Assembly: GCA_964371335.1 (NCBI GenBank)
Contig: CAYJMC010000003.1
Location: 41,962 to 105,961 of the forward strand
Origin: an uncultured Anaerolineaceae bacterium
Lineage (GTDB): Bacteria > Chloroflexota > Anaerolineae > Anaerolineales > UBA11579
Length of the DNA: 64,000 bases
Direction of reading: 5' to 3'
Part shown: piece by piece, positions 459 to 38,813 of the stretch
How the letters are laid out: every line of letters starts with the position of its first letter
How positions within the stretch are numbered: position 1 is the first letter of the stretch
Program-made: the position numbers and the translations under genes
The notes under the pieces: model-generated
Told to the model about the DNA's origin: nothing
Seen by the model: the letters and a program-made list of their open reading frames with translations, nothing else
The model's database searches: none

Positions 459-1340
459 GTGAATCCGTTTCTCGCCCGTCTCGCTAACCCGCGCCCCATC
501 ATCCTCGATGGCGCCACCGGCACCGAACTCGAGCGCCGCGGCGCGGATACCAGCACGCCGATCTGGTCGGCCATGGCGCTGTTGGACGCGCCGGAGATTG
601 TCGAGCAGGTACACCGCGACTATCTGGATGCAGGCGCCGAAGTCATCATCACCAACACCTTCCGCACGCACCGCTGCAATCTGGAAAAGCTCGGCATGGG
701 CGACGAGGCGGCCCGGCTCACCACGCTGGCCGTCTCCATTGCTCAAAAAGCCATGCGTGCAAGCGGCAGGCAAGCCTGGGTAGCCGGTTCCATGGCGCCG
801 CTAGAAGATAGCTACTCCACCGCCAAACCATCCTCGCGCCAAGAATATCTCCGCGCGCACACTGAGATGGCGCGCAACCTGGCTGCCGCGAGTGTCGATC
901 TGCTGCTGATCGAAACGATGAAAGATATCGCCGAAGCGGAAGCGGCCGCCGAGGCGGCCAGCGCCACTGGGCTGCCCTTTGGGGTCAGCTTCATCTGTAA
1001 GCCCGATGGGAATTTGCTCTCGGGAGAAATGATTGCCGATGCGGTAAAAACCGTCGAGCCGCATGGTCCAGCTTTCTTTGGGATCAACTGCACCCCCGCG
1101 CCCACACTCCACGTCGCGCTAAAAGAACTGCGTGCCGTCACCCGGCTGCCGATTGCTGTTTATGCCAACTCCGGCCACACCGACGATTACCAAACATGGG
1201 GCGAGACCGAGGCCACGCAGCCCGCCGCCTATTGCCAGTTTGCCGAGCTTTGGATCAAACTCGGCGCGCACCTGGTGGGCGGATGCTGTGGCACGCGGCC
1301 GGAACACATCCAAGCCATCGCCCACGCTGTTAAAGCCTGA
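459..1340 (+). CDS. mmuM: homocysteine S-methyltransferase
   Basis: Track ORF 420-1340. ILDGATGTELERRG, INCTPAP and a C-terminal GGCCGTRPEHI motif are typical of the Hcy S-methyltransferase domain. The likely start is GTG 459 (VNPFLARL...), 6 nt after TATAAT at 447-452. The TTG at 420 lies inside the repeat element. Confidence 0.85.
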   Translation: MNPFLARLANPRPIILDGATGTELERRGADTSTPIWSAMALLDAPEIVEQVHRDYLDAGAEVIITNTFRTHRCNLEKLGMGDEAARLTTLAVSIAQKAMRASGRQAWVAGSMAPLEDSYSTAKPSSRQEYLRAHTEMARNLAAASVDLLLIETMKDIAEAEAAAEAASATGLPFGVSFICKPDGNLLSGEMIADAVKTVEPHGPAFFGINCTPAPTLHVALKELRAVTRLPIAVYANSGHTDDYQTWGETEATQPAAYCQFAELWIKLGAHLVGGCCGTRPEHIQAIAHAVKA

Positions 1341-1544
1341 ACCACTCCCTGGGCCGTCCTTTTACTGCCTTGGTATCCTTTCAAAAATGTTCAGTACCTG
1401 TTCATAAGGATCTGAGTAAAATCACCCTGCCCGTGCGAGTTTTGGTCGGGAAAGAACACATTTTTTACCAATCCAGAGCTCGGGACGGAGGGATCAATCG
1501 CCAATCAAAATATCCCCGCATCCAGGACGGAACTATTCGACAAC

Positions 1545-2963
1545 TTGCTCGAGGGTTGCCAGATCATTGATTTTAACTGGGTCTATCTGTATTTGAACAA
1601 CGCAGCCATCGCGCACGCCCAAAAGTCACGGGAGGAATTGATAGGTTATACGATGATGGAAGCATATCCCGGGATCGAGGGGACACCCTTGTTCGCAAGA
1701 ATGCGCAAGGTGATGAAGGATCGTGAACCAGATCGTATTGAGAACCCATTCAAGTATCCAAACGGTAACCAAGGCTGGTTTGAATTGCTTATCCAACCTT
1801 GTCCGGAAGGCATCCTGGTGCTCTCACAGGACATCAGCGACAGAAAACTGGCCCTCGAGCGGGCACACGACCAATTGAAACGCTTGAATGCCTTGCATCA
1901 AATCGACCGGGCGATCACCTCAAACTTCGATGCGTCTGTAGTTTTGGAAAGCGTCTTGAAACAAATCCACCAGATCCTGAATCTGGATGCCGTTGCCATC
2001 TTACAGCTTGATCCGGTTACGCATGATCTGCGAGCCAGCGGTTCGAGTGGTTTCAAAAAAGCCCACTTGGAGGATTTAATCTTAAAAATGGGGAAAGGCA
2101 TTGCAGGAATGGCGGCCTTGGAACGACGTACGATAGCAATCGATGATTTGGCCAACGAGCCTACATTTGTCCGCCGGACTTTAGTGGAAAAAGAAGGCTT
2201 CGTTAGTTATGTGGGCGCCTCATTGGTCTCCAGAGGAGAAACTCTCGGATTGCTAGAAGGCTTTCATCGGAGCAAGCTAACGCCAAACAAGGATTGGCTG
2301 CACTACTTCAACATCGTAGCTAATCAGATGGCAATTGCCATCGTTCACATGCGAACATTTGGCGATTTGCAAAAAGCCAATCAGGAATTGATGATGGCCT
2401 ACGACCGCACTATCAATGGCTGGGCGAAGGCCTTGGAAATACGCGACTTCGAAACGCAGGGCCACTCGAAACGTGTAACCGAACTATCGGTTACCTTGGC
2501 AAGGGCATTCGGTTATAGCGATAGCGAACTAGTCAACCTCCGCCGAGGCGCTATGCTGCACGATATTGGCAAGATGGGGATTCCTGACAAGATACTCCTC
2601 AAGCCGGGAAAGCTAAGCGATAAGGAATGGAAGATCATGAAGCAACATCCCCTGATCGCTTACGACCTTCTTTCCAACATAGAATTTCTTAAGCCAGCCC
2701 TGGATATCCCTTATTGCCATCACGAGAAATGGGATGGGAGTGGATATCCCCGTGGACTTAAGGAAAACGTGATTCCAGAACCAGCCCGCATCTTTGCTGT
2801 GGCGGATGTATGGGATGCACTGCGTTCAGACCGACCTTATCGCAAACACTGGTCGGACGAGGACGCCTTCGCGTATATCAAAAAGGAAACCGGCAGCCAG
2901 TTCGATCCTCGTGTCGTGGAAGAGTTTGAACCATACGCCATGGAAGCGCTCAAGGTTCAATAG
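1545..2963 (+). CDS. PAS-GAF-HD-GYP signalling protein (putative c-di-GMP phosphodiesterase)
   Basis: N-terminal PAS-like segment, central GAF-like segment, and a C-terminal HD-GYP domain (MLHDIGKMGIP, HHEKWDGSGYPRGL). TTG 1545 is the first canonical start after the in-frame stop at 1413. Confidence 0.8.
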   Translation: MLEGCQIIDFNWVYLYLNNAAIAHAQKSREELIGYTMMEAYPGIEGTPLFARMRKVMKDREPDRIENPFKYPNGNQGWFELLIQPCPEGILVLSQDISDRKLALERAHDQLKRLNALHQIDRAITSNFDASVVLESVLKQIHQILNLDAVAILQLDPVTHDLRASGSSGFKKAHLEDLILKMGKGIAGMAALERRTIAIDDLANEPTFVRRTLVEKEGFVSYVGASLVSRGETLGLLEGFHRSKLTPNKDWLHYFNIVANQMAIAIVHMRTFGDLQKANQELMMAYDRTINGWAKALEIRDFETQGHSKRVTELSVTLARAFGYSDSELVNLRRGAMLHDIGKMGIPDKILLKPGKLSDKEWKIMKQHPLIAYDLLSNIEFLKPALDIPYCHHEKWDGSGYPRGLKENVIPEPARIFAVADVWDALRSDRPYRKHWSDEDAFAYIKKETGSQFDPRVVEEFEPYAMEALKVQ

Positions 2964-26218: not shown

Positions 26219-27634
26219 ATGAGTCATCCCGGGCTTCCCGAGTCCGAATCCTTACGTGTCTATAACAACATCCTCGGCACCATTGGGCGCACTCCTCTAG
26301 TGCGCCTCAGCAAATTAGGTCGAGATCTTCCCTGCCCCCTGTACGCCAAGATCGAGTTCTTCAATCCCGGCGGTTCGGTCAAGGACCGCATCGGCGTCAA
26401 CATCATCGACGCCGCCGAGCGCGAAGGCCGCCTGAAGCCGGGCGGCACCGTGGTGGAAGCTACCTCGGGGAACACGGGCGTTGGGTTGGCTATCGTGGCA
26501 GCTATCCGCGGCTACAAGTGCATCTTCGTTATGCCCGACAAAATGAGCCAGGAAAAGATCCAGCTTCTGCGCGCTTTTGGCGGCAAAGTGGTCATCACTC
26601 CCACCGCCGTCGCCCCGGAGGACCCGCGCTCCTATTACCGCGTCGCCGAACGCATCGCCGCCGAGACGCCAAACGCCATCCTCGCCGACCAGTATCGCAA
26701 CCCGCAGAATCCCCTCAGCCATTATCAGACCACCGGCCCGGAGATCTGGGAGCAGACCGGCGGCAAGGTTACCGACGTGATCATCGGCATGGGCACCGGT
26801 GGTACTTACAGCGGCATTGGCAAATATCTAAAGGAAAAGAATCCCAATATCAAGATCGTCGGGATCGACGTGCAAGGTTCTATCCTGAAAGAAATCTGGG
26901 CGAACAAAGGCAAGGTACCGCCCGGTGTCGAAGCGATTACCTACAAAGTCGAAGGCATCGGTGAAGATTTCTTGCCAAAGACTTCAGACCTTTCGCAGGT
27001 GGATGAAATTGTACGCGTCAACGACAAAGAATCCTTCCACTGGACGCGGCGCCTGGTAGCTGAAGAAGGCATCTTCGCCGGCGGCTCTTCCGGCGCGGCT
27101 GTGGCCGGCGCGTTCAGCTACTGCAAAGGATTGTCCGCCGATCGTCTGGCCGTGGTGCTGCTGCCCGATTCCGGTTCTCGCTATCTCTCCAAAGTCTTCG
27201 ATGACAAGTGGATGCGCGAGAACGGTTTCCTGGAATCCGAATGGAGCGAAGCCACTCTGCGCGAAGTCCTTGGTTCCAAGAGTTTCAGCGAATTGATCTC
27301 GGCCTCCGCCAATGACCGCATCACGGATGTAGTTGCCAAGATGAAGGAGTACGGTATTTCGCAATTGCCTGCCATGAATGGCGGCACAGAGGTGATCGGT
27401 CTGGTGCGCGAAGGCGATCTGCTCACCCATTTGTTGGAGAGCAAAGCCGAGCGGCCAGGCGAAGACAGCATCCGCGGCCTGCTGCAGCCCGCGCCGCCCA
27501 GCCTGCCCGCCCACACCCCGCTGGCCGACGCCATGCCCGATCTAGTCAAGCACAACGCCGTACTGGTGAATGACGGCGGCCGCGTGGTCGGCATCCTCAC
27601 GAAAATTGATGTGCTTGATTTTATTCAAAGATAG
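26219..27634 (+). CDS. cystathionine beta-synthase-type PLP enzyme (CysK/CysM fold plus C-terminal CBS-domain pair)
   Basis: FFNPGGSVKDR with the PLP lysine, TSGNTGVGLA, GTGGT, then two CBS repeats (about residues 340-470). Confidence 0.85.
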   Translation: MSHPGLPESESLRVYNNILGTIGRTPLVRLSKLGRDLPCPLYAKIEFFNPGGSVKDRIGVNIIDAAEREGRLKPGGTVVEATSGNTGVGLAIVAAIRGYKCIFVMPDKMSQEKIQLLRAFGGKVVITPTAVAPEDPRSYYRVAERIAAETPNAILADQYRNPQNPLSHYQTTGPEIWEQTGGKVTDVIIGMGTGGTYSGIGKYLKEKNPNIKIVGIDVQGSILKEIWANKGKVPPGVEAITYKVEGIGEDFLPKTSDLSQVDEIVRVNDKESFHWTRRLVAEEGIFAGGSSGAAVAGAFSYCKGLSADRLAVVLLPDSGSRYLSKVFDDKWMRENGFLESEWSEATLREVLGSKSFSELISASANDRITDVVAKMKEYGISQLPAMNGGTEVIGLVREGDLLTHLLESKAERPGEDSIRGLLQPAPPSLPAHTPLADAMPDLVKHNAVLVNDGGRVVGILTKIDVLDFIQR

Positions 27635-27640
27635 CTTCTG

Positions 27641-28480
27641 ATGTCCGTCGATCTTCCGAATCTTCGCGTTCTGCCTACCGAGTCGCTGGTTCCCCATGAA
27701 TGGCACGATACGTCGCGCTCCGGGCCATTGGTCGAACGATTGCGCGCCAGCGGCGTCCTGCGCAACCCTCCCATCGTTACCCCGTTCGAGGACGGCAGCG
27801 ATCGTTACATGGTGCTCGACGGCGCCAACCGAAGCAGCGCCTTTAGGCAAATGGGGCTGCCGCATATCCTGGCGCAGGTGGTTAAAGCCGACGACCCAGG
27901 TCTTGAACTGCAAAAGTGGAACCACGTCCTGTGGAACTGGGACGCTCAGGCGCTGGTTGAATCTATCCGCAATCTGCCCGACATCTCATTTCGCGAGATC
28001 GATCCGGGTGTCAAACGTCCACAAAGCGAATGGCCGCCCAAAACGCTGGTTTGGCTGCAATTGCCGGACGAGTCCGCTTTTATCGCTCGTTTCGAAGACA
28101 CCGATCTGCGCGCCCGCGCAGGCCAATTGGCCAAGATCGCGCATCTCTACACCGGCAAAGCTCACCTGGACCGCACCACCGCACAGCGCATCAGCGAACT
28201 AAACGGCCAATACGACGGCTTGACGGCCATCGTGGTTTATCCACCTTTCAAAGTGCACGAGGTACTCGAGCTCTGTGAAGCCGGCATCCTGCTTCCGCCT
28301 GGGGTGACTCGTTTCCTGGTTTCCCCGCGCGCCCTGCGCGTCAACTATCCGTTGGATGAATTATCCTCAAACAAATCGCTGCTCGACAAAAACGGCGCGC
28401 TCGAACGCTGGGTGAATGAGCGCGTGGCCCGCAAGGGCATTCGCTATTACGCGGAAGCGACTGTATTGTTTGACGAATAA
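27641..28480 (+). CDS. ParB/Srx (sulfiredoxin)-fold domain protein of unknown function
   Basis: N-terminal LPTESLVPHEWHD...RNPPIV...YMVLDGANRSSAF resembles the ParB N-terminal/Srx DGxxR motif. The ATG lies 6 nt after the upstream stop. There is no HTH or ParB dimerisation region. Confidence 0.5.
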   Translation: MSVDLPNLRVLPTESLVPHEWHDTSRSGPLVERLRASGVLRNPPIVTPFEDGSDRYMVLDGANRSSAFRQMGLPHILAQVVKADDPGLELQKWNHVLWNWDAQALVESIRNLPDISFREIDPGVKRPQSEWPPKTLVWLQLPDESAFIARFEDTDLRARAGQLAKIAHLYTGKAHLDRTTAQRISELNGQYDGLTAIVVYPPFKVHEVLELCEAGILLPPGVTRFLVSPRALRVNYPLDELSSNKSLLDKNGALERWVNERVARKGIRYYAEATVLFDE

Positions 28481-28528: not shown

Positions 28529-28915
28529 TCAGCGGATTCCGGTGTCGCAGAGCACTTTGACTTCGGTCATCGCCCCTGCTTCGACAGTCACCGGTTCATT
28601 GGTCGTGCAATAAGGCAACCCACCGGGGTTGGGTGAGCGAATAGCATAGGTCCCTATGGGCAAGCCCACCTCAAATTCGCCGTTCGCATCCGAAGAGAAT
28701 TCCCGGATGACGTTCGTCCCGTCTGGGCGGGTCACCACCAGGTCCGTCGCATAAGGCGTATCGGGACACGGGACGCCTTCTTGTACAACGGGGCAATTCG
28801 GCCCCAGCAGCACTACGCCTCGAATGCCTTGACCCTCCGGCACGGCATACCCGCAAGCCGCCAGAATCGAAAAGACGAATATGACTACAGCCAGAAACTT
28901 CCTATTCATTACCAA
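28529..28915 (-). CDS. small lipoprotein with carboxypeptidase-regulatory-like beta-sandwich
   Basis: Signal peptide with lipobox ILAAC, then GIRGVVLLGP...DANGEFEVGLPIGTYAI. The start is ambiguous between TTG 28915 and ATG 28909. Confidence 0.5.
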   Translation of the reverse strand: MVMNRKFLAVVIFVFSILAACGYAVPEGQGIRGVVLLGPNCPVVQEGVPCPDTPYATDLVVTRPDGTNVIREFSSDANGEFEVGLPIGTYAIRSPNPGGLPYCTTNEPVTVEAGAMTEVKVLCDTGIR

Positions 28916-28995: not shown

Positions 28996-29523
28996 CTATT
29001 TGCAGCTCCATACCCAATCTGCATTGTTCTTGGCCTTCAGCCCTTTTTCACCGGTGCGAAAAGCACCGCAAACAAAAGCTCTGTACTCGTAACGACCGGC
29101 ATGCACCGTATATTTATGATCACCAGTAATAATCGTCAGAAAATACGTTTTCGGACCGTGGAGGAGTAATTCAAATGTTCTCCCCGTCAGGTTGGTGATC
29201 ACCACTGTGCCAAACAAATCTTTTTCGCACTTTAAAACTTTGAGCGTGGCGCCGTGGCTCCCAACCTGAATGGTGCCCGAGACGGTACGACCACAACCCA
29301 AGTATCTATAGTCGTAATTGCCTGGTTCGACGCGCACCTTGGTGATCTGCCGTTGGATGGCGATGTCCAAATCCATGGGTCCACGCAGGATCAAGGTCGT
29401 TTTTGACTGACCCAGGTTGAGAATAGTCAAGGTAACCTCGCTGTAAGCCAGCGCAGGGGAAACTGTCGCCATCAATAGCACTGTGACCAGTGCGAACAAA
29501 ATAATGCGAGACCAGATTTTCAT
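28996..29523 (-). CDS. secreted protein of unknown function
   Basis: AGGAGG RBS, signal peptide ending PALAYS, a beta-rich sequence, and visibly lower GC. Confidence 0.55.
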   Translation of the reverse strand: MKIWSRIILFALVTVLLMATVSPALAYSEVTLTILNLGQSKTTLILRGPMDLDIAIQRQITKVRVEPGNYDYRYLGCGRTVSGTIQVGSHGATLKVLKCEKDLFGTVVITNLTGRTFELLLHGPKTYFLTIITGDHKYTVHAGRYEYRAFVCGAFRTGEKGLKAKNNADWVWSCK

Positions 29524-29586: not shown

Positions 29587-30735
29587 TTAGACCTTCTTGA
29601 GTCCCTGCTCTAAGTCGGCAATTAAATCTTCCACATGCTCCACGCCCACCGAAAGCCGCACTAAGCCTGGGCTCACCTCCAGCGGCGACCCAGCCGTCGA
29701 GAGGTGGGTCATAGCGGCGGGTACCTCTATCAGCGACTCTACGCCTCCCAATGACTCCGCCAGGGCGAAGATGCGCGTACCTTCGGCTACTCTGCGAGCA
29801 GCGCCTCCCCCACCCTTCAATTCGAAAGACACCATGCCGCCGCCATTGCGCATCTGCTTCCGCGCCAATTCGCGTTGTGGATGTGAATTATGGAATGGGT
29901 AGTAGACCTTGCTCACCTTCGGGTACGCCACCAGGAACTCGGCAACCGCGGCCGCGTTGGTCGCGTGGCGGTCCATGCGCAAGTGCAATGTTTTGATGCC
30001 GCGCAAGATGAGGAAGCAATCCATCGGCCCTGGAACCGCTCCAGCCGCGTTCTGCAAAAAGAGCAATCGCTCGTACAGTTTGTCTTCGTTCAAAGCGATA
30101 AGGCCAAGCACGGCGTCTGAATGCCCGCCTAGATATTTTGTTGCCGAATGCACCACGACGTCCGCGCCCAACTTCAGCGGCTGCTGTAAATAAGGAGTGG
30201 CAAAGGTATTGTCGACAACCAGCAATGGTTTTGTGGAATGCGCCTTTGATATGTTCGCAATTGCAGCCAGATCGGCAATGCCTAAATATGGATTCGTCGG
30301 CGTCTCCAGCCACAGCATTCGGGTCTTCGGTGTCAGCGCCGCCTTAATCGCTGCCGGATCAGCCACGTTCACATAGCCAAACTCCAGCCCAAACCGTGTG
30401 TATTCCTTGTCGAACAGCCTAAATGTGCCGCCGTACACGTCACCGGCCACTAACACGTGGTCCCCGGGGTTGAAGGTGCGGATGATGGTGTCAATGGCTG
30501 CCATCCCGGAGGCAAATGCCAGCCCATGCTTCGCACCTTCCAATGCGGCAATGCTTTCCTGCAGCGCCGTGCGCGTTGGGTTGCCGGTGCGCGAGTACTC
30601 GTAGCCCTTGTGCCTGCCGACGCCCACTTGAGCATAGGTGGATGTTTGGTAGATGGGGGTCATTACCGCGCCCGTTTCCGGGTCTGGCGGCTGCCCGGCG
30701 TGGATAGCTAGCGTCTCAAAATGGTCTTCGGCCAT
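29587..30735 (-). CDS. cystathionine gamma-lyase/gamma-synthase family PLP enzyme (trans-sulfuration)
   Basis: FETLAIHAG, YSRTGNPT, and SATKYLGGHSD with the PLP lysine. The start is set to ATG 30735 (MAEDHFETL). The track extension to 30888 is non-homologous. Confidence 0.9.
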   Translation of the reverse strand: MAEDHFETLAIHAGQPPDPETGAVMTPIYQTSTYAQVGVGRHKGYEYSRTGNPTRTALQESIAALEGAKHGLAFASGMAAIDTIIRTFNPGDHVLVAGDVYGGTFRLFDKEYTRFGLEFGYVNVADPAAIKAALTPKTRMLWLETPTNPYLGIADLAAIANISKAHSTKPLLVVDNTFATPYLQQPLKLGADVVVHSATKYLGGHSDAVLGLIALNEDKLYERLLFLQNAAGAVPGPMDCFLILRGIKTLHLRMDRHATNAAAVAEFLVAYPKVSKVYYPFHNSHPQRELARKQMRNGGGMVSFELKGGGGAARRVAEGTRIFALAESLGGVESLIEVPAAMTHLSTAGSPLEVSPGLVRLSVGVEHVEDLIADLEQGLKKV

Positions 30736-30873
30736 GGATACCTCGCTGGAATTGTAATCCAGCCCTTTCGTGTGGCGATATGGAGATACCGTAGCCTTAT
30801 AGTGAAACTTGCACAAAAAATAGCAGGGGTTTTGCAGGATTTTTGATGTGCAACGTGAATTAAAATCACGTGG

Positions 30874-31848
30874 ATGGATTCCAAACACGACGTTGTAACC
30901 CCGCCAGATCAGAGATTTCCCGCCAAGGATGCTGCGGGCATGGCCATTCTGGGCGGCCTGCTGCTGGCGCCTTTGTTGTATGCAGCGCCTTTGCTTGGCT
31001 GGGACTGGTTCATGGTGTATTTTGAAAACAAAGAGTCGTTGTTCTGGTATCCGCCCTGGACCAGTTTGATAACCAGCCCCTTGGCACTCGCGCTTCCGTG
31101 GCGTTGGGGGCTGGCAATCTCCAACGGGCTCACGCTGTCGGCTGTAGCTGTTGTTACTTTGCGCGAAAGTGGCGCAAATAATCGCTGGGGTTATGTGGGG
31201 GCAGCCTTAGCAATCCTCACACCTCCCATCGCGGTGCTATTGTGGGCAGGCCAGGTGGATGGTTGGGGGTTAATCGGCTATCTGCTCCTGCCCTGGGGCG
31301 TGCCGCTACTGCTAGTAAAGCCAACCATTGGAGCTTTCGCCCTTCTGGCACGCAAGAGCTGGTTCCTTGCCGGTTTGATCTTTGCCCTGATTACTTTTCT
31401 CGTTTGGCCGGGCTGGCCGGCCCAACTCATTGGCATCCACGTAGTCGGGGAATTCGATCATATGGCATCCATGGGATGGTACAAACTGAGCTGGCCGATT
31501 GCGTTGTTGGGTTTGGTGTTGATGCTGTTTACCAATCGCAAAGATCCGATGCACCTGATGGCCGCGGGGGTGTTCCTGATGCCATATGTATTTCCATATC
31601 ATCTTGTGCTTTTGCTGCCTACGCTGGGGCGTTTTACTTATCTCCGCCAATTGTTACTGTGGCTGTGCGTTTGGTTGATGGCGCTGCCGTTTGCTCTTGG
31701 CAGCCAATGGGCATGGTCAGGTTATGTATTTCCTTTGGTGGTTTGGTTTTTGCTTTGGCAAGAGGCGCCGAAAGAATCTACCTGGTGGGCCTTATTGCGG
31801 CGGCTTACCGGCAAATTTCAGGAACGGATGACAAGACAAAAAAAGTAA
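30874..31848 (+). CDS. polytopic integral membrane protein, unknown function
   Basis: 8-9 hydrophobic segments. I recognised no motif. Confidence 0.5.
   Translation: MDSKHDVVTPPDQRFPAKDAAGMAILGGLLLAPLLYAAPLLGWDWFMVYFENKESLFWYPPWTSLITSPLALALPWRWGLAISNGLTLSAVAVVTLRESGANNRWGYVGAALAILTPPIAVLLWAGQVDGWGLIGYLLLPWGVPLLLVKPTIGAFALLARKSWFLAGLIFALITFLVWPGWPAQLIGIHVVGEFDHMASMGWYKLSWPIALLGLVLMLFTNRKDPMHLMAAGVFLMPYVFPYHLVLLLPTLGRFTYLRQLLLWLCVWLMALPFALGSQWAWSGYVFPLVVWFLLWQEAPKESTWWALLRRLTGKFQERMTRQKK

Positions 31849-37484: not shown

Positions 37485-38813
<1,329 letters not shown>

What the first reader, a model, noticed from the sequence alone, without database searches (positions are those of the whole stretch)
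26219..28480. ParB/Srx-fold protein coupled to a CBS-type enzyme: candidate serine-kinase-like partner in Cys/cystathionine synthesis
A 279-aa protein with an N-terminal ParB/sulfiredoxin-like domain (LVPHEWHD..., VLDGANRSSAF) starts 6 nt after the stop of a cystathionine-beta-synthase-type PLP enzyme. It has no HTH or ParB dimerisation region. A cystathionine gamma-lyase-family gene lies 1.1 kb away. The window also carries mmuM, ahcY and an adenosine-kinase candidate. As I recall, the archaeal ADP-dependent serine kinase SerK, which makes O-phosphoserine for cysteine synthesis, has a ParB/Srx fold and was originally annotated as ParB. Some CysK/CBS-fold enzymes use O-phosphoserine. The pair may therefore form an O-phosphoserine-dependent cystathionine or cysteine route in a bacterium.
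Basis: inference. Interest (0 to 1): 0.6.

Follow-up and report, generated by a model that had tools for sequence, protein, structure and literature searches.

The report
Serine-kinase-like gene behind CBS
A small gene just behind a cystathionine beta-synthase gene encodes a relative of the two known free-serine kinases, and comparative genomics suggests it fills the missing last step of serine synthesis in these bacteria rather than driving a new phosphoserine-based route to cysteine.

Summary
A 471-aa Bateman-domain cystathionine beta-synthase (CBS, 26219-27634) is followed after 6 nt by a 279-aa protein (27641-28480). That protein has no Pfam hit. It matches SbnI and SerK over its whole length by sequence and by fold, and it keeps their catalytic Glu and Asp.

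The CBS looks ordinary: it is closest to M. tuberculosis Rv1077, and no residues are specific to kinase-linked copies. Most Chloroflexota CBS genes occur without this gene.

Family-wide evidence points to the serine/O-phosphoserine node of the phosphorylated serine pathway:
- The family is often fused to SerA, once directly behind a SerC-like aminotransferase.
- Canonical SerB is nearly absent from the phylum.
- The family is almost mutually exclusive with DUF1015 "SerBK", the published SerB substitute (0 of 38 and 5 of 63 genomes hold both, about 24 expected in each sample).
- In congeneric genomes the two occupy the same chromosomal slot.

Best reading (0.55): a SerBK-like serine/phosphoserine enzyme co-transcribed with a serine-consuming CBS. 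O-phosphoserine-dependent CBS remains a rival (0.2). No activity was measured.

This scan noted the same arrangement before in other Anaerolineales genomes.

The parts
26219..27634 (+). Cystathionine beta-synthase (P0001, 471 aa): PLP fold-type II catalytic core plus C-terminal Bateman (2x CBS) module, no heme domain
   Evidence: PALP 272.8 bits and CBS 58.8 bits. TIGR01137 scores 523.7 bits against a cut-off of 510.25. The best solved relative is M. tuberculosis Rv1077 (E 2.4e-112, full length), then human CBS (E 4.5e-104). The motifs SVKDR, TSGNTG, DQY, GTGGT and GGSSG are present.
27635..27640 (+). 6-nt intergenic spacer (cttctg) between the CBS stop and the next start; probable co-transcription
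   Evidence: Sequence read. No terminator-like site lies between the genes.
27641..28480 (+). SbnI/SerK-fold protein (P0002, 279 aa): ParB/Srx-like N-domain plus C-domain; candidate L-serine / O-phospho-L-serine phosphotransferase
   Evidence: NCBIfam SbnI E 6.3e-15 and SerK E 5.7e-8, both below cut-off. PDB phmmer finds SbnI at E 1e-9 over residues 7-247. The AF2 model has pLDDT 91.9. Foldseek's top hits are SbnI and SerK, E 1e-18 to 1e-14, TM 0.74-0.78 over the whole length. Residues invariant in 38 homologs are H19, E20, R26, D60, G61, R64, Q79, W93, H95, R224, R230, R268, Y270 and E272.
29587..30888 (-). Cys/Met-metabolism PLP enzyme (cystathionine gamma-lyase/gamma-synthase type, P0004); the real start is probably the Met at residue 52 (about 30735)
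   Evidence: Cys_Met_Meta_PP 484 bits. PRK07811 scores 562 bits against a cut-off of 513. Homologs in related loci align from residue 43-52 onward.
37551..38813 (+). Adenosylhomocysteinase (ahcY), the source of homocysteine; pathway context only
   Evidence: TIGR00936 scores 662.8 bits against a cut-off of 497.6.

Best explanation
P0002 is a two-domain enzyme of the free L-serine kinase superfamily (SbnI/SerK fold) and belongs to a distinct, unnamed bacterial subfamily. In Chloroflexota this subfamily behaves as the alternative to DUF1015 'SerBK'. It most likely interconverts L-serine and O-phospho-L-serine at the end of the phosphorylated serine pathway (SerA -> SerC-like -> this enzyme). In that role it would stand in for the SerB that the phylum largely lacks, and it may also open the reverse route from serine to 3-phosphoglycerate.

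In this lineage the gene lies 6 nt behind an ordinary, Bateman-domain CBS and is probably co-transcribed with it. That would tie serine supply to reverse transsulfuration: homocysteine + serine -> cystathionine, then cysteine via the nearby gamma-lyase-type enzyme.

Shown here: fold, catalytic residues, gene order, fusions and distribution. Inferred: substrate, direction and physiological role.
For: Fold and residues:
- Whole-length matches to SbnI and SerK by sequence and by structure.
- E20 aligns with the SbnI LHE Glu. By the offset of the alignment it also aligns with SerK E30, the residue mutated in PDB entries 5x0e/g/j/k.
- D60 of the DGxxR motif is invariant.

Links to the serine pathway:
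- N-terminal SerA (phosphoglycerate dehydrogenase) fusions: P0125 scores 402 bits to TIGR01327.
- Six more such fusions occur among the top 150 global cluster representatives.
- About 15 of 63 Anaerolineae hits lie in 560-640-aa frames.
- In G210 a SerC-like class-V aminotransferase sits directly upstream of the SerA fusion.
- The own genome has a short SerA and the same type of aminotransferase. It has no SerB, CysE, CysK/CysM or DUF1015 over cut-off, at 87% completeness.
- Canonical SerB was found in only 4 of 401 Chloroflexota genomes.

Relation to DUF1015:
- Anti-correlated with DUF1015: 0 of 38 positive genomes hold both in the phylum sample, and 5 of 63 in the class sample. About 24 were expected in each.
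- Switches occur within genera g4, g7 and g61.
- In-situ exchange: in congeneric G274 and G330 the same slot between the pseudouridine-synthase gene and the small-120-aa/PD40 genes holds either this gene or DUF1015 plus an aminotransferase. In G112 and G019, DUF1015 follows SerA.
- DUF1015 complements E. coli serB, and its closest fold is SbnI (PMC13759103).
Against: - No enzyme activity or direction was measured.
- The reverse kinase reaction is thermodynamically unfavourable (Keq about 4e-4, quoted in PMC13759103).
- The anti-correlation is not absolute. Five Anaerolineae genomes hold both genes, though one DUF1015 copy is split by a frameshift.
- Genomes in the samples are related, so the Fisher p-values overstate the case.
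- 105 of 401 genomes have neither gene, so a third solution exists that this genome might also carry.
- The own genome is only 87% complete.
- Archaeal serK-serA-aminotransferase clusters were read as catabolic, not biosynthetic (PMC5120207).
- The explanation does not account specifically for why the gene sits behind CBS in two separate lineages.
Confidence: 0.55

Rival explanations
1. P0002 is a dedicated serine kinase that makes O-phosphoserine for the co-transcribed CBS-type enzyme. The CBS would then condense O-phosphoserine, not serine, with homocysteine (or sulfide) to give cystathionine (or cysteine).
For: - A 6-nt gap and conserved adjacency in 7 of 7 close relatives, plus an apparently independent second lineage, g21.
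- 31 of 38 kinase-positive genomes carry CBS, against about 37% of negatives (hand count).
- No CysE and no CysK/CysM were found in the own genome, so O-acetylserine is unlikely.
- SbnI feeds a CysK-fold enzyme (SbnA), and SerK feeds cysteine synthesis (PMC5120207).
Against: - The CBS is closest to serine-using Rv1077 and human CBS, with identical active-site motifs.
- No residue distinguishes kinase-adjacent CBS from non-adjacent Anaerolineae CBS.
- About 133 of 164 CBS-bearing genomes lack the kinase-like gene.
- In most kinase-positive genomes the two genes are unlinked.
- O-phosphoserine is already available from SerA and the SerC-like enzyme, without a kinase.
Confidence: 0.2
2. P0002 phosphorylates a different hydroxy-amino acid, for example homoserine. 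O-phosphohomoserine would then feed threonine synthase or a plant-type cystathionine gamma-synthase.
For: No ThrB over cut-off in the own genome (best 40.6 bits). There are three ThrC-like genes and a gamma-synthase/lyase-type gene nearby.
Against: - The fusions and neighbours are SerA and SerC-like, which are serine-pathway enzymes.
- The functional analogue by distribution is the serB-complementing DUF1015.
- SerK does not act on threonine or homoserine (abstract of PMC5120207).
Confidence: 0.07
3. P0002 is mainly a regulator or nucleotide-binding partner, as SbnI also acts as a heme-responsive transcription factor. It would modulate CBS or gene expression rather than catalyse a metabolic step.
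For: - SbnI is annotated as bifunctional regulator/kinase (NF033589 name).
- ParB-fold proteins bind diverse NTPs, and some act as scaffolds (PMC12704722).
Against: - No HTH or DNA-binding domain was detected.
- The catalytic Glu and Asp and many polar residues are invariant across 28-85% identical homologs.
- Fusion to an enzyme (SerA) and exchange with DUF1015 fit a metabolic role.
Confidence: 0.06

Closest known systems
SbnI (Staphylococcus aureus / S. pseudintermedius), ATP-dependent free L-serine kinase of staphyloferrin B synthesis (PDB 5uje, 5ujd, 6nr6)
   Same: Same two-domain fold over the whole length (Foldseek E 1e-18 to 1e-17, TM 0.77-0.78). Detectable sequence similarity over residues 7-247. 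The LHE Glu and the DGxxR Asp are conserved.
   Different: - Only about 20% identical, and 55 bits against the 350-bit equivalog cut-off.
- Not in a siderophore (sbnA/sbnB) cluster.
- Its partners are CBS, SerA and a SerC-like aminotransferase.
- No evidence of heme or DNA binding.
SerK (Thermococcus kodakarensis TK0378), ADP-dependent free serine kinase (PDB 5x0b and others)
   Same: Same fold (E 1e-15 to 1e-14, TM 0.74-0.78). The catalytic Glu (E30) is aligned. Archaeal homologs also cluster with phosphoglycerate dehydrogenase and aminotransferase genes (PMC5120207).
   Different: About 16% identical, and 32 bits against the 380-bit cut-off. Bacterial. Nucleotide preference unknown. Here it is fused to SerA in many relatives, and it replaces DUF1015.
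DUF1015 / 'SerBK' (PF06245; Price et al., PLoS Genet 2026, PMC13759103)
   Same: Appears to work alike. Both are found with serA and serC-like genes. The two are nearly mutually exclusive in 401 and 186 Chloroflexota genomes and occupy the same chromosomal slot in congeneric genomes. The closest fold to DUF1015 is reported to be SbnI.
   Different: Not a member. There is no PF06245 hit, and the profile-profile comparison is not significant (probability 1%). P0002 has 279 aa, against about 440 aa for DUF1015.
M. tuberculosis Cbs (Rv1077) with MetB (Rv1079): reverse transsulfuration pair
   Same: P0001 aligns full-length, Bateman module included (E 2.4e-112). P0004 passes the PRK07811 model. A CBS lies near a gamma-lyase/synthase-type gene.
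   Different: A serine-kinase-fold gene is inserted directly behind the CBS here.

Membership tests
Free serine kinase superfamily (SbnI/SerK fold) | Two-domain architecture: ParB/Srx-like N-domain plus the SbnI/SerK-specific C-domain, about 240-280 aa | tested here: met
   The AF2 model (pLDDT 91.9) aligns over 243-279 columns with SbnI, Pfu 1vk1 and SerK, TM 0.74-0.78.
Free serine kinase superfamily (SbnI/SerK fold) | Catalytic Glu (SbnI E20 / SerK E30) and Asp of the DGxxR motif (SbnI D58) | tested here: met
   E20 and D60 align with these residues and are invariant in 38 homologs. The roles of SbnI E20 and D58 are from my memory of Verstraete et al. 2018, a paper not held here. The importance of SerK E30 is visible in the PDB titles.
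Free serine kinase superfamily (SbnI/SerK fold) | Phosphorylation of free L-serine with ATP or ADP | not testable with these tools
   Needs an enzyme assay.
SbnI equivalog (NF033589) | Score over the curated cut-off (350 bits), and location in the sbn siderophore cluster with sbnA/sbnB | tested here: not met
   55.2 bits. The neighbours are CBS, mltG and a gamma-lyase-type gene.
Archaeal SerK equivalog (NF053625) | Score over the curated cut-off (380 bits) | tested here: not met
   32.2 bits, N-domain only.
ParB / Noc DNA-clamp proteins | ParBc N-domain followed by an HTH DNA-binding domain and a C-terminal dimerisation domain | tested here: not met
   No Pfam hit. ParB and Noc structures match only about 80 N-terminal residues (E >= 7e-5, TM by query about 0.24).
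Sulfiredoxin | Single domain of about 100 aa with a catalytic Cys in the FGGCHR motif | tested here: not met
   The corresponding motif is LDGANR, with no Cys. The protein has an extra C-domain of about 180 aa. Srx matches only the N-domain.
DUF1015 / SerBK (PF06245) | Match to PF06245 | tested here: not met
   No hit at E <= 0.1. hhalign of alignment A1 against the DUF1015 alignment A2 gives probability 1%. Functional analogy is inferred from distribution only.
Cystathionine beta-synthase (TIGR01137), for P0001 | Score over the curated cut-off; PLP-binding Lys motif, TSGNT loop, and a C-terminal Bateman module | tested here: met
   523.7 bits against a cut-off of 510.25. Motifs and full-length alignment to Rv1077 and human CBS. 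Two CBS domains.

The most novel reading that the evidence does not exclude
The kinase-like enzyme and the CBS form a phosphoserine-driven transsulfuration unit. O-phosphoserine, made from serine by P0002 or taken directly from SerA and the SerC-like enzyme in a SerB-less cell, would be the physiological electrophile that CBS condenses with homocysteine. As far as I know that reaction has not been described for a Bateman-domain CBS.
Probability: 0.15. Interest if true: 0.75.

Novelty: new variant of a known kind. Interest (0 to 1): 0.55.

Why it matters
The phosphoserine phosphatase step is one of the most persistent gaps in reconstructed amino-acid biosynthesis. GapMind 2026 still lists serB as missing in 8% of prototrophs after adding DUF1015.

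The data here point to a second, unnamed SbnI/SerK-fold family: at least 560 clusters at 50% identity, and about a third of sampled Anaerolineae genomes. It swaps with DUF1015 and is often fused to SerA.

If confirmed, three things would follow:
- A gap would be filled for a large uncultured lineage.
- The list of 'kinase-fold' enzymes that stand in for SerB would grow.
- Many 'ParB N-terminal domain' or 'hypothetical' annotations would be corrected.

The hypothesis is directly testable by serB complementation. The CBS linkage also leaves a cheap biochemical question open: serine or O-phosphoserine as the CBS substrate.

Tried and rejected
- **SerB profile.** I tried canonical SerB (TIGR00338) absence as a discriminator. 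It is found in only 4 of 401 genomes of the phylum, so it says nothing specific about kinase-positive genomes.
- **Homology to DUF1015.** The profile-profile comparison of the P0002 family with DUF1015 was not significant (probability 1%). The two are analogues or very remote relatives, not one family by sequence.
- **Specificity residues in CBS.** A first comparison against CBS from other classes gave 17 candidate columns. All disappeared once non-adjacent Anaerolineae CBS were added, so they were phylogenetic, not functional.
- **N-terminal extension in L053.** The 508-aa frame in G279 is a junk alternative frame, not a fusion.
- **JAB and SerA fusion contexts.** The gene context of the Prok-JAB fusion P0209 and of the SerA fusion P0246 was uninformative.
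- **Papers.** The SbnI paper (Verstraete 2018) is not held. The mBio SepRS paper was irrelevant.
- **Not run.** I did not run complex prediction, because no binding claim is made. I did not run the look-up of sequencing runs or read laying, because co-transcription would not separate the hypotheses.
Full report
**Observation**

The window comes from an Anaerolineales (Chloroflexota) MAG of 2.43 Mb, 87% complete.

- ORF 26219-27634 (+) encodes a 471-aa protein, P0001. ORF 27641-28480 (+) encodes a 279-aa protein, P0002.
- The CBS stop (TAG, 27632-27634) and the next ATG are separated by 6 nt. No terminator-like site lies between them.
- P0001 carries PALP plus two CBS domains and passes the curated cystathionine beta-synthase model (523.7 bits, cut-off 510.25).
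- P0002 has no Pfam hit.
- A Cys/Met-metabolism PLP gene (29587-30888, minus strand) ends 1.1 kb downstream. It passes the PRK07811 model.
- The rest of the context is alaS, an ABC ATPase, ruvX and mltG upstream. Downstream lie a PfkB nucleoside-kinase-like gene and ahcY. An S-methyltransferase-domain gene sits at 498-1331.

**What P0002 is**

- NCBIfam finds SbnI (E 6e-15) and archaeal SerK (E 6e-8). Both are far below their equivalog cut-offs.
- phmmer against PDB sequences aligns residues 7-247 with SbnI (E 1e-9), and more weakly with Pyrococcus 1vk1 and T. kodakarensis SerK.
- An AlphaFold2 model built on 38 homologs has pLDDT 91.9.
- Foldseek's nine best hits are all SbnI, 1vk1 or SerK over the whole length (E 1e-18 to 1e-14, TM 0.74-0.78). 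ParB, Noc and sulfiredoxin match only about 80 N-terminal residues.
- E20 (in LVPHE) aligns with the SbnI Glu of LHE. By the offset of the alignment it also aligns with SerK E30, the residue mutated in the deposited SerK structures.
- D60 and R64 (in LDGANR) align with the SbnI DGVHR motif.
- These residues, plus H19, R26, Q79, W93, H95, R224, R230, R268, Y270 and E272, are invariant across homologs 28-85% identical.

P0002 is thus a member of the free-serine-kinase fold superfamily, but of neither named equivalog. The subfamily is large. An exhaustive search found 952 clusters at 50% identity with E <= 1e-3, and 560 with E <= 1e-10. Public sources name its members 'hypothetical' or 'ParB N-terminal domain-containing'.

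**Is the CBS pairing general?**

- The order CBS, then P0002 homolog, is kept in all seven related MAG loci that include upstream DNA. Their P0002 homologs are 66-97% identical to P0002. The gamma-lyase-type gene lies 1-4 kb beyond in six of them.
- In a 401-genome Chloroflexota sample, 38 genomes have a homolog.
- In the nearest other family (f2, about 47% identity) the gene lies between a pseudouridine synthase gene and small-120-aa/PD40 genes, not next to CBS.
- CBS adjacency reappears only in genus g21 (33% identity to P0002, CBS 50% identical). That looks like a second, independent origin.
- Full-length CBS occurs in about 164 of 401 genomes. It is in 31 of the 38 kinase-positive genomes, but also in about 133 of 363 negatives (hand count). 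Most CBS genes therefore work without this partner.

**Is the CBS unusual?**

P0001 aligns end to end with M. tuberculosis Rv1077 (E 2.4e-112) and with human CBS (E 4.5e-104). It keeps the SVKDR, TSGNTG, DQY, GTGGT and GGSSG motifs.

I aligned 52 Chloroflexota CBS sequences: both adjacency lineages, 12 non-adjacent Anaerolineae copies and 30 from other classes. No column has a residue shared by both adjacency lineages and missing from the non-adjacent Anaerolineae copies. There is no sign of a re-tooled substrate pocket.

**Where the family points instead**

1. **Fusions.**
   - In G210 the homolog is the C-terminal half of a 601-aa protein. Its N-terminal half is a short phosphoglycerate dehydrogenase (TIGR01327, 402 bits over profile positions 1-304). 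The kinase-fold domain sits where the regulatory domains of long SerA would be.
   - G322 has the same fusion.
   - G250 adds a serine/threonine-dehydratase-like PLP domain in front, giving 922 aa.
   - Six more SerA fusions are among the top 150 global representatives.
   - About 15 of 63 Anaerolineae hits lie in 560-640-aa frames.
2. **Neighbour.** In G210 a class-V aminotransferase of the AGXT/SerC-like type lies immediately upstream of the fusion. The own genome has the same type of aminotransferase and a short SerA elsewhere.
3. **Missing steps.**
   - The own genome has no hit over cut-off for SerB, CysE, ThrB or DUF1015, and no CysK/CysM-type enzyme.
   - Canonical SerB was found in only 4 of 401 genomes of the phylum.
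4. **Anti-correlation with DUF1015.**
   - Price et al. (PLoS Genet 2026, PMC13759103) showed that a DUF1015 protein rescues an E. coli serB mutant. They also report that DUF1015 genes lie near serA and serC, and that their closest fold is SbnI. They named the family SerBK.
   - In the same 401 genomes DUF1015 occurs in 258. It is in none of the 38 kinase-positive genomes, where 24 were expected.
   - The split runs inside families and genera. In family f2, 13 genomes have DUF1015 and 11 have this gene, which accounts for all 24. Genus g4 splits 5 to 1, g7 splits 1 to 3, and g61 holds one of each.
   - A denser sample of 186 Anaerolineae gave 63 with this gene, 71 with DUF1015 and only 5 with both, again against 24 expected.
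   - In one of those five the DUF1015 copy is split across two frames.
   - Related genomes are not independent, so the Fisher p-values (2.6e-19 and 1.6e-10) overstate the case. The repeated switches are the real evidence.
5. **In-situ exchange.**
   - In congeneric G274 and G330 the flanking genes are collinear.
   - The slot between the pseudouridine synthase gene and the small-120-aa/PD40 genes holds this gene in G274. In G330 it holds DUF1015 plus a class-V aminotransferase.
   - In G112 and G019, DUF1015 directly follows a SerA-like gene.

**Interpretation**

The simplest account is that this subfamily does the same job as DUF1015 SerBK. It would handle the serine/O-phosphoserine step of the phosphorylated serine pathway in a phylum that lacks SerB.

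Direction is unresolved:
- The serB complementation of DUF1015 argues for O-phosphoserine to serine.
- The archaeal SerK precedent, with its serA/aminotransferase clusters, was read as serine assimilation (PMC5120207).
- Price et al. note that the reverse kinase reaction is unfavourable.

Placing the gene behind CBS, twice independently, fits a serine-consuming partner that pulls the reaction. It fits equally well a CBS that takes O-phosphoserine. Other substrates or a regulatory role are minor rivals.

**Novelty**

- SbnI, SerK and DUF1015 SerBK are all published.
- The GapMind 2026 paper mentions neither Chloroflexota nor ParB-fold proteins.
- The ParB-fold survey does not mention dehydrogenase fusions.
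- My literature searches found no description of this subfamily as a SerB or DUF1015 alternative.
- Earlier notes of this scan had already recorded the CBS/kinase-like/gamma-lyase arrangement in other Anaerolineales genomes. They had also judged the CBS ordinary.
- As far as the notes shown to me go, the additions here are the SerA and SerC-like links, the anti-correlation with DUF1015 and the in-situ exchange.

I class the finding as a new variant of a known kind.

Noticed in passing
L052:6001-8766 (-) (G250) and a 915-aa frame in G516: A triple fusion of 922 aa: serine/threonine-dehydratase-like PLP domain (threo-3-hydroxy-Asp ammonia-lyase model, 438 bits), then a SerA-like dehydrogenase, then an SbnI-like domain. 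Three serine-related activities sit in one polypeptide.
   Followed up: partly
P0209 (L110:5001-6317): A Prok-JAB (Mec/deubiquitinase-like) domain is fused N-terminally to an SbnI-like domain (438 aa). Its neighbours (molybdopterin oxidoreductase, NrfD, response regulator) gave no clue to its role.
   Followed up: partly
own genome, G000:C4:17372-18937 (-) next to a ThrC-like gene at C4:19781-21031: A 521-aa protein resembles CysK only remotely (83 bits) and sits beside one of three threonine-synthase-like genes. The genome otherwise shows no CysK/CysM, CysE, SerB or ThrB over cut-off, at 87% completeness.
   Followed up: no
L128 (G471:C171) 539-1916 (-): The DUF1015 gene of a genome that also has the SbnI-like gene is split between two reading frames near position 1132-1212. 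This is either a pseudogene or an assembly error.
   Followed up: partly
window 29587-30888 (-): The longest ORF of the gamma-lyase/synthase-type gene begins with a 51-residue GTG-initiated extension that has no counterpart in relatives. The real start is probably the Met at about 30735.
   Followed up: partly
window 28529-28915 (-) and 28996-29523 (-): Two ORFs of 128 and 175 aa lie between the kinase-like gene and the gamma-lyase-type gene. Neither has an NCBIfam match.
   Followed up: no
L106:157-1305 (-) / L105:2757-3677 (-) / L107:2680-3654 (-): In Anaerolineales family f2, the DUF1015 gene is flanked by a class-V aminotransferase (G330) or directly preceded by a SerA-like dehydrogenase (G112, G019). 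This repeats, in Chloroflexota, the serA/serC linkage published for DUF1015.
   Followed up: yes
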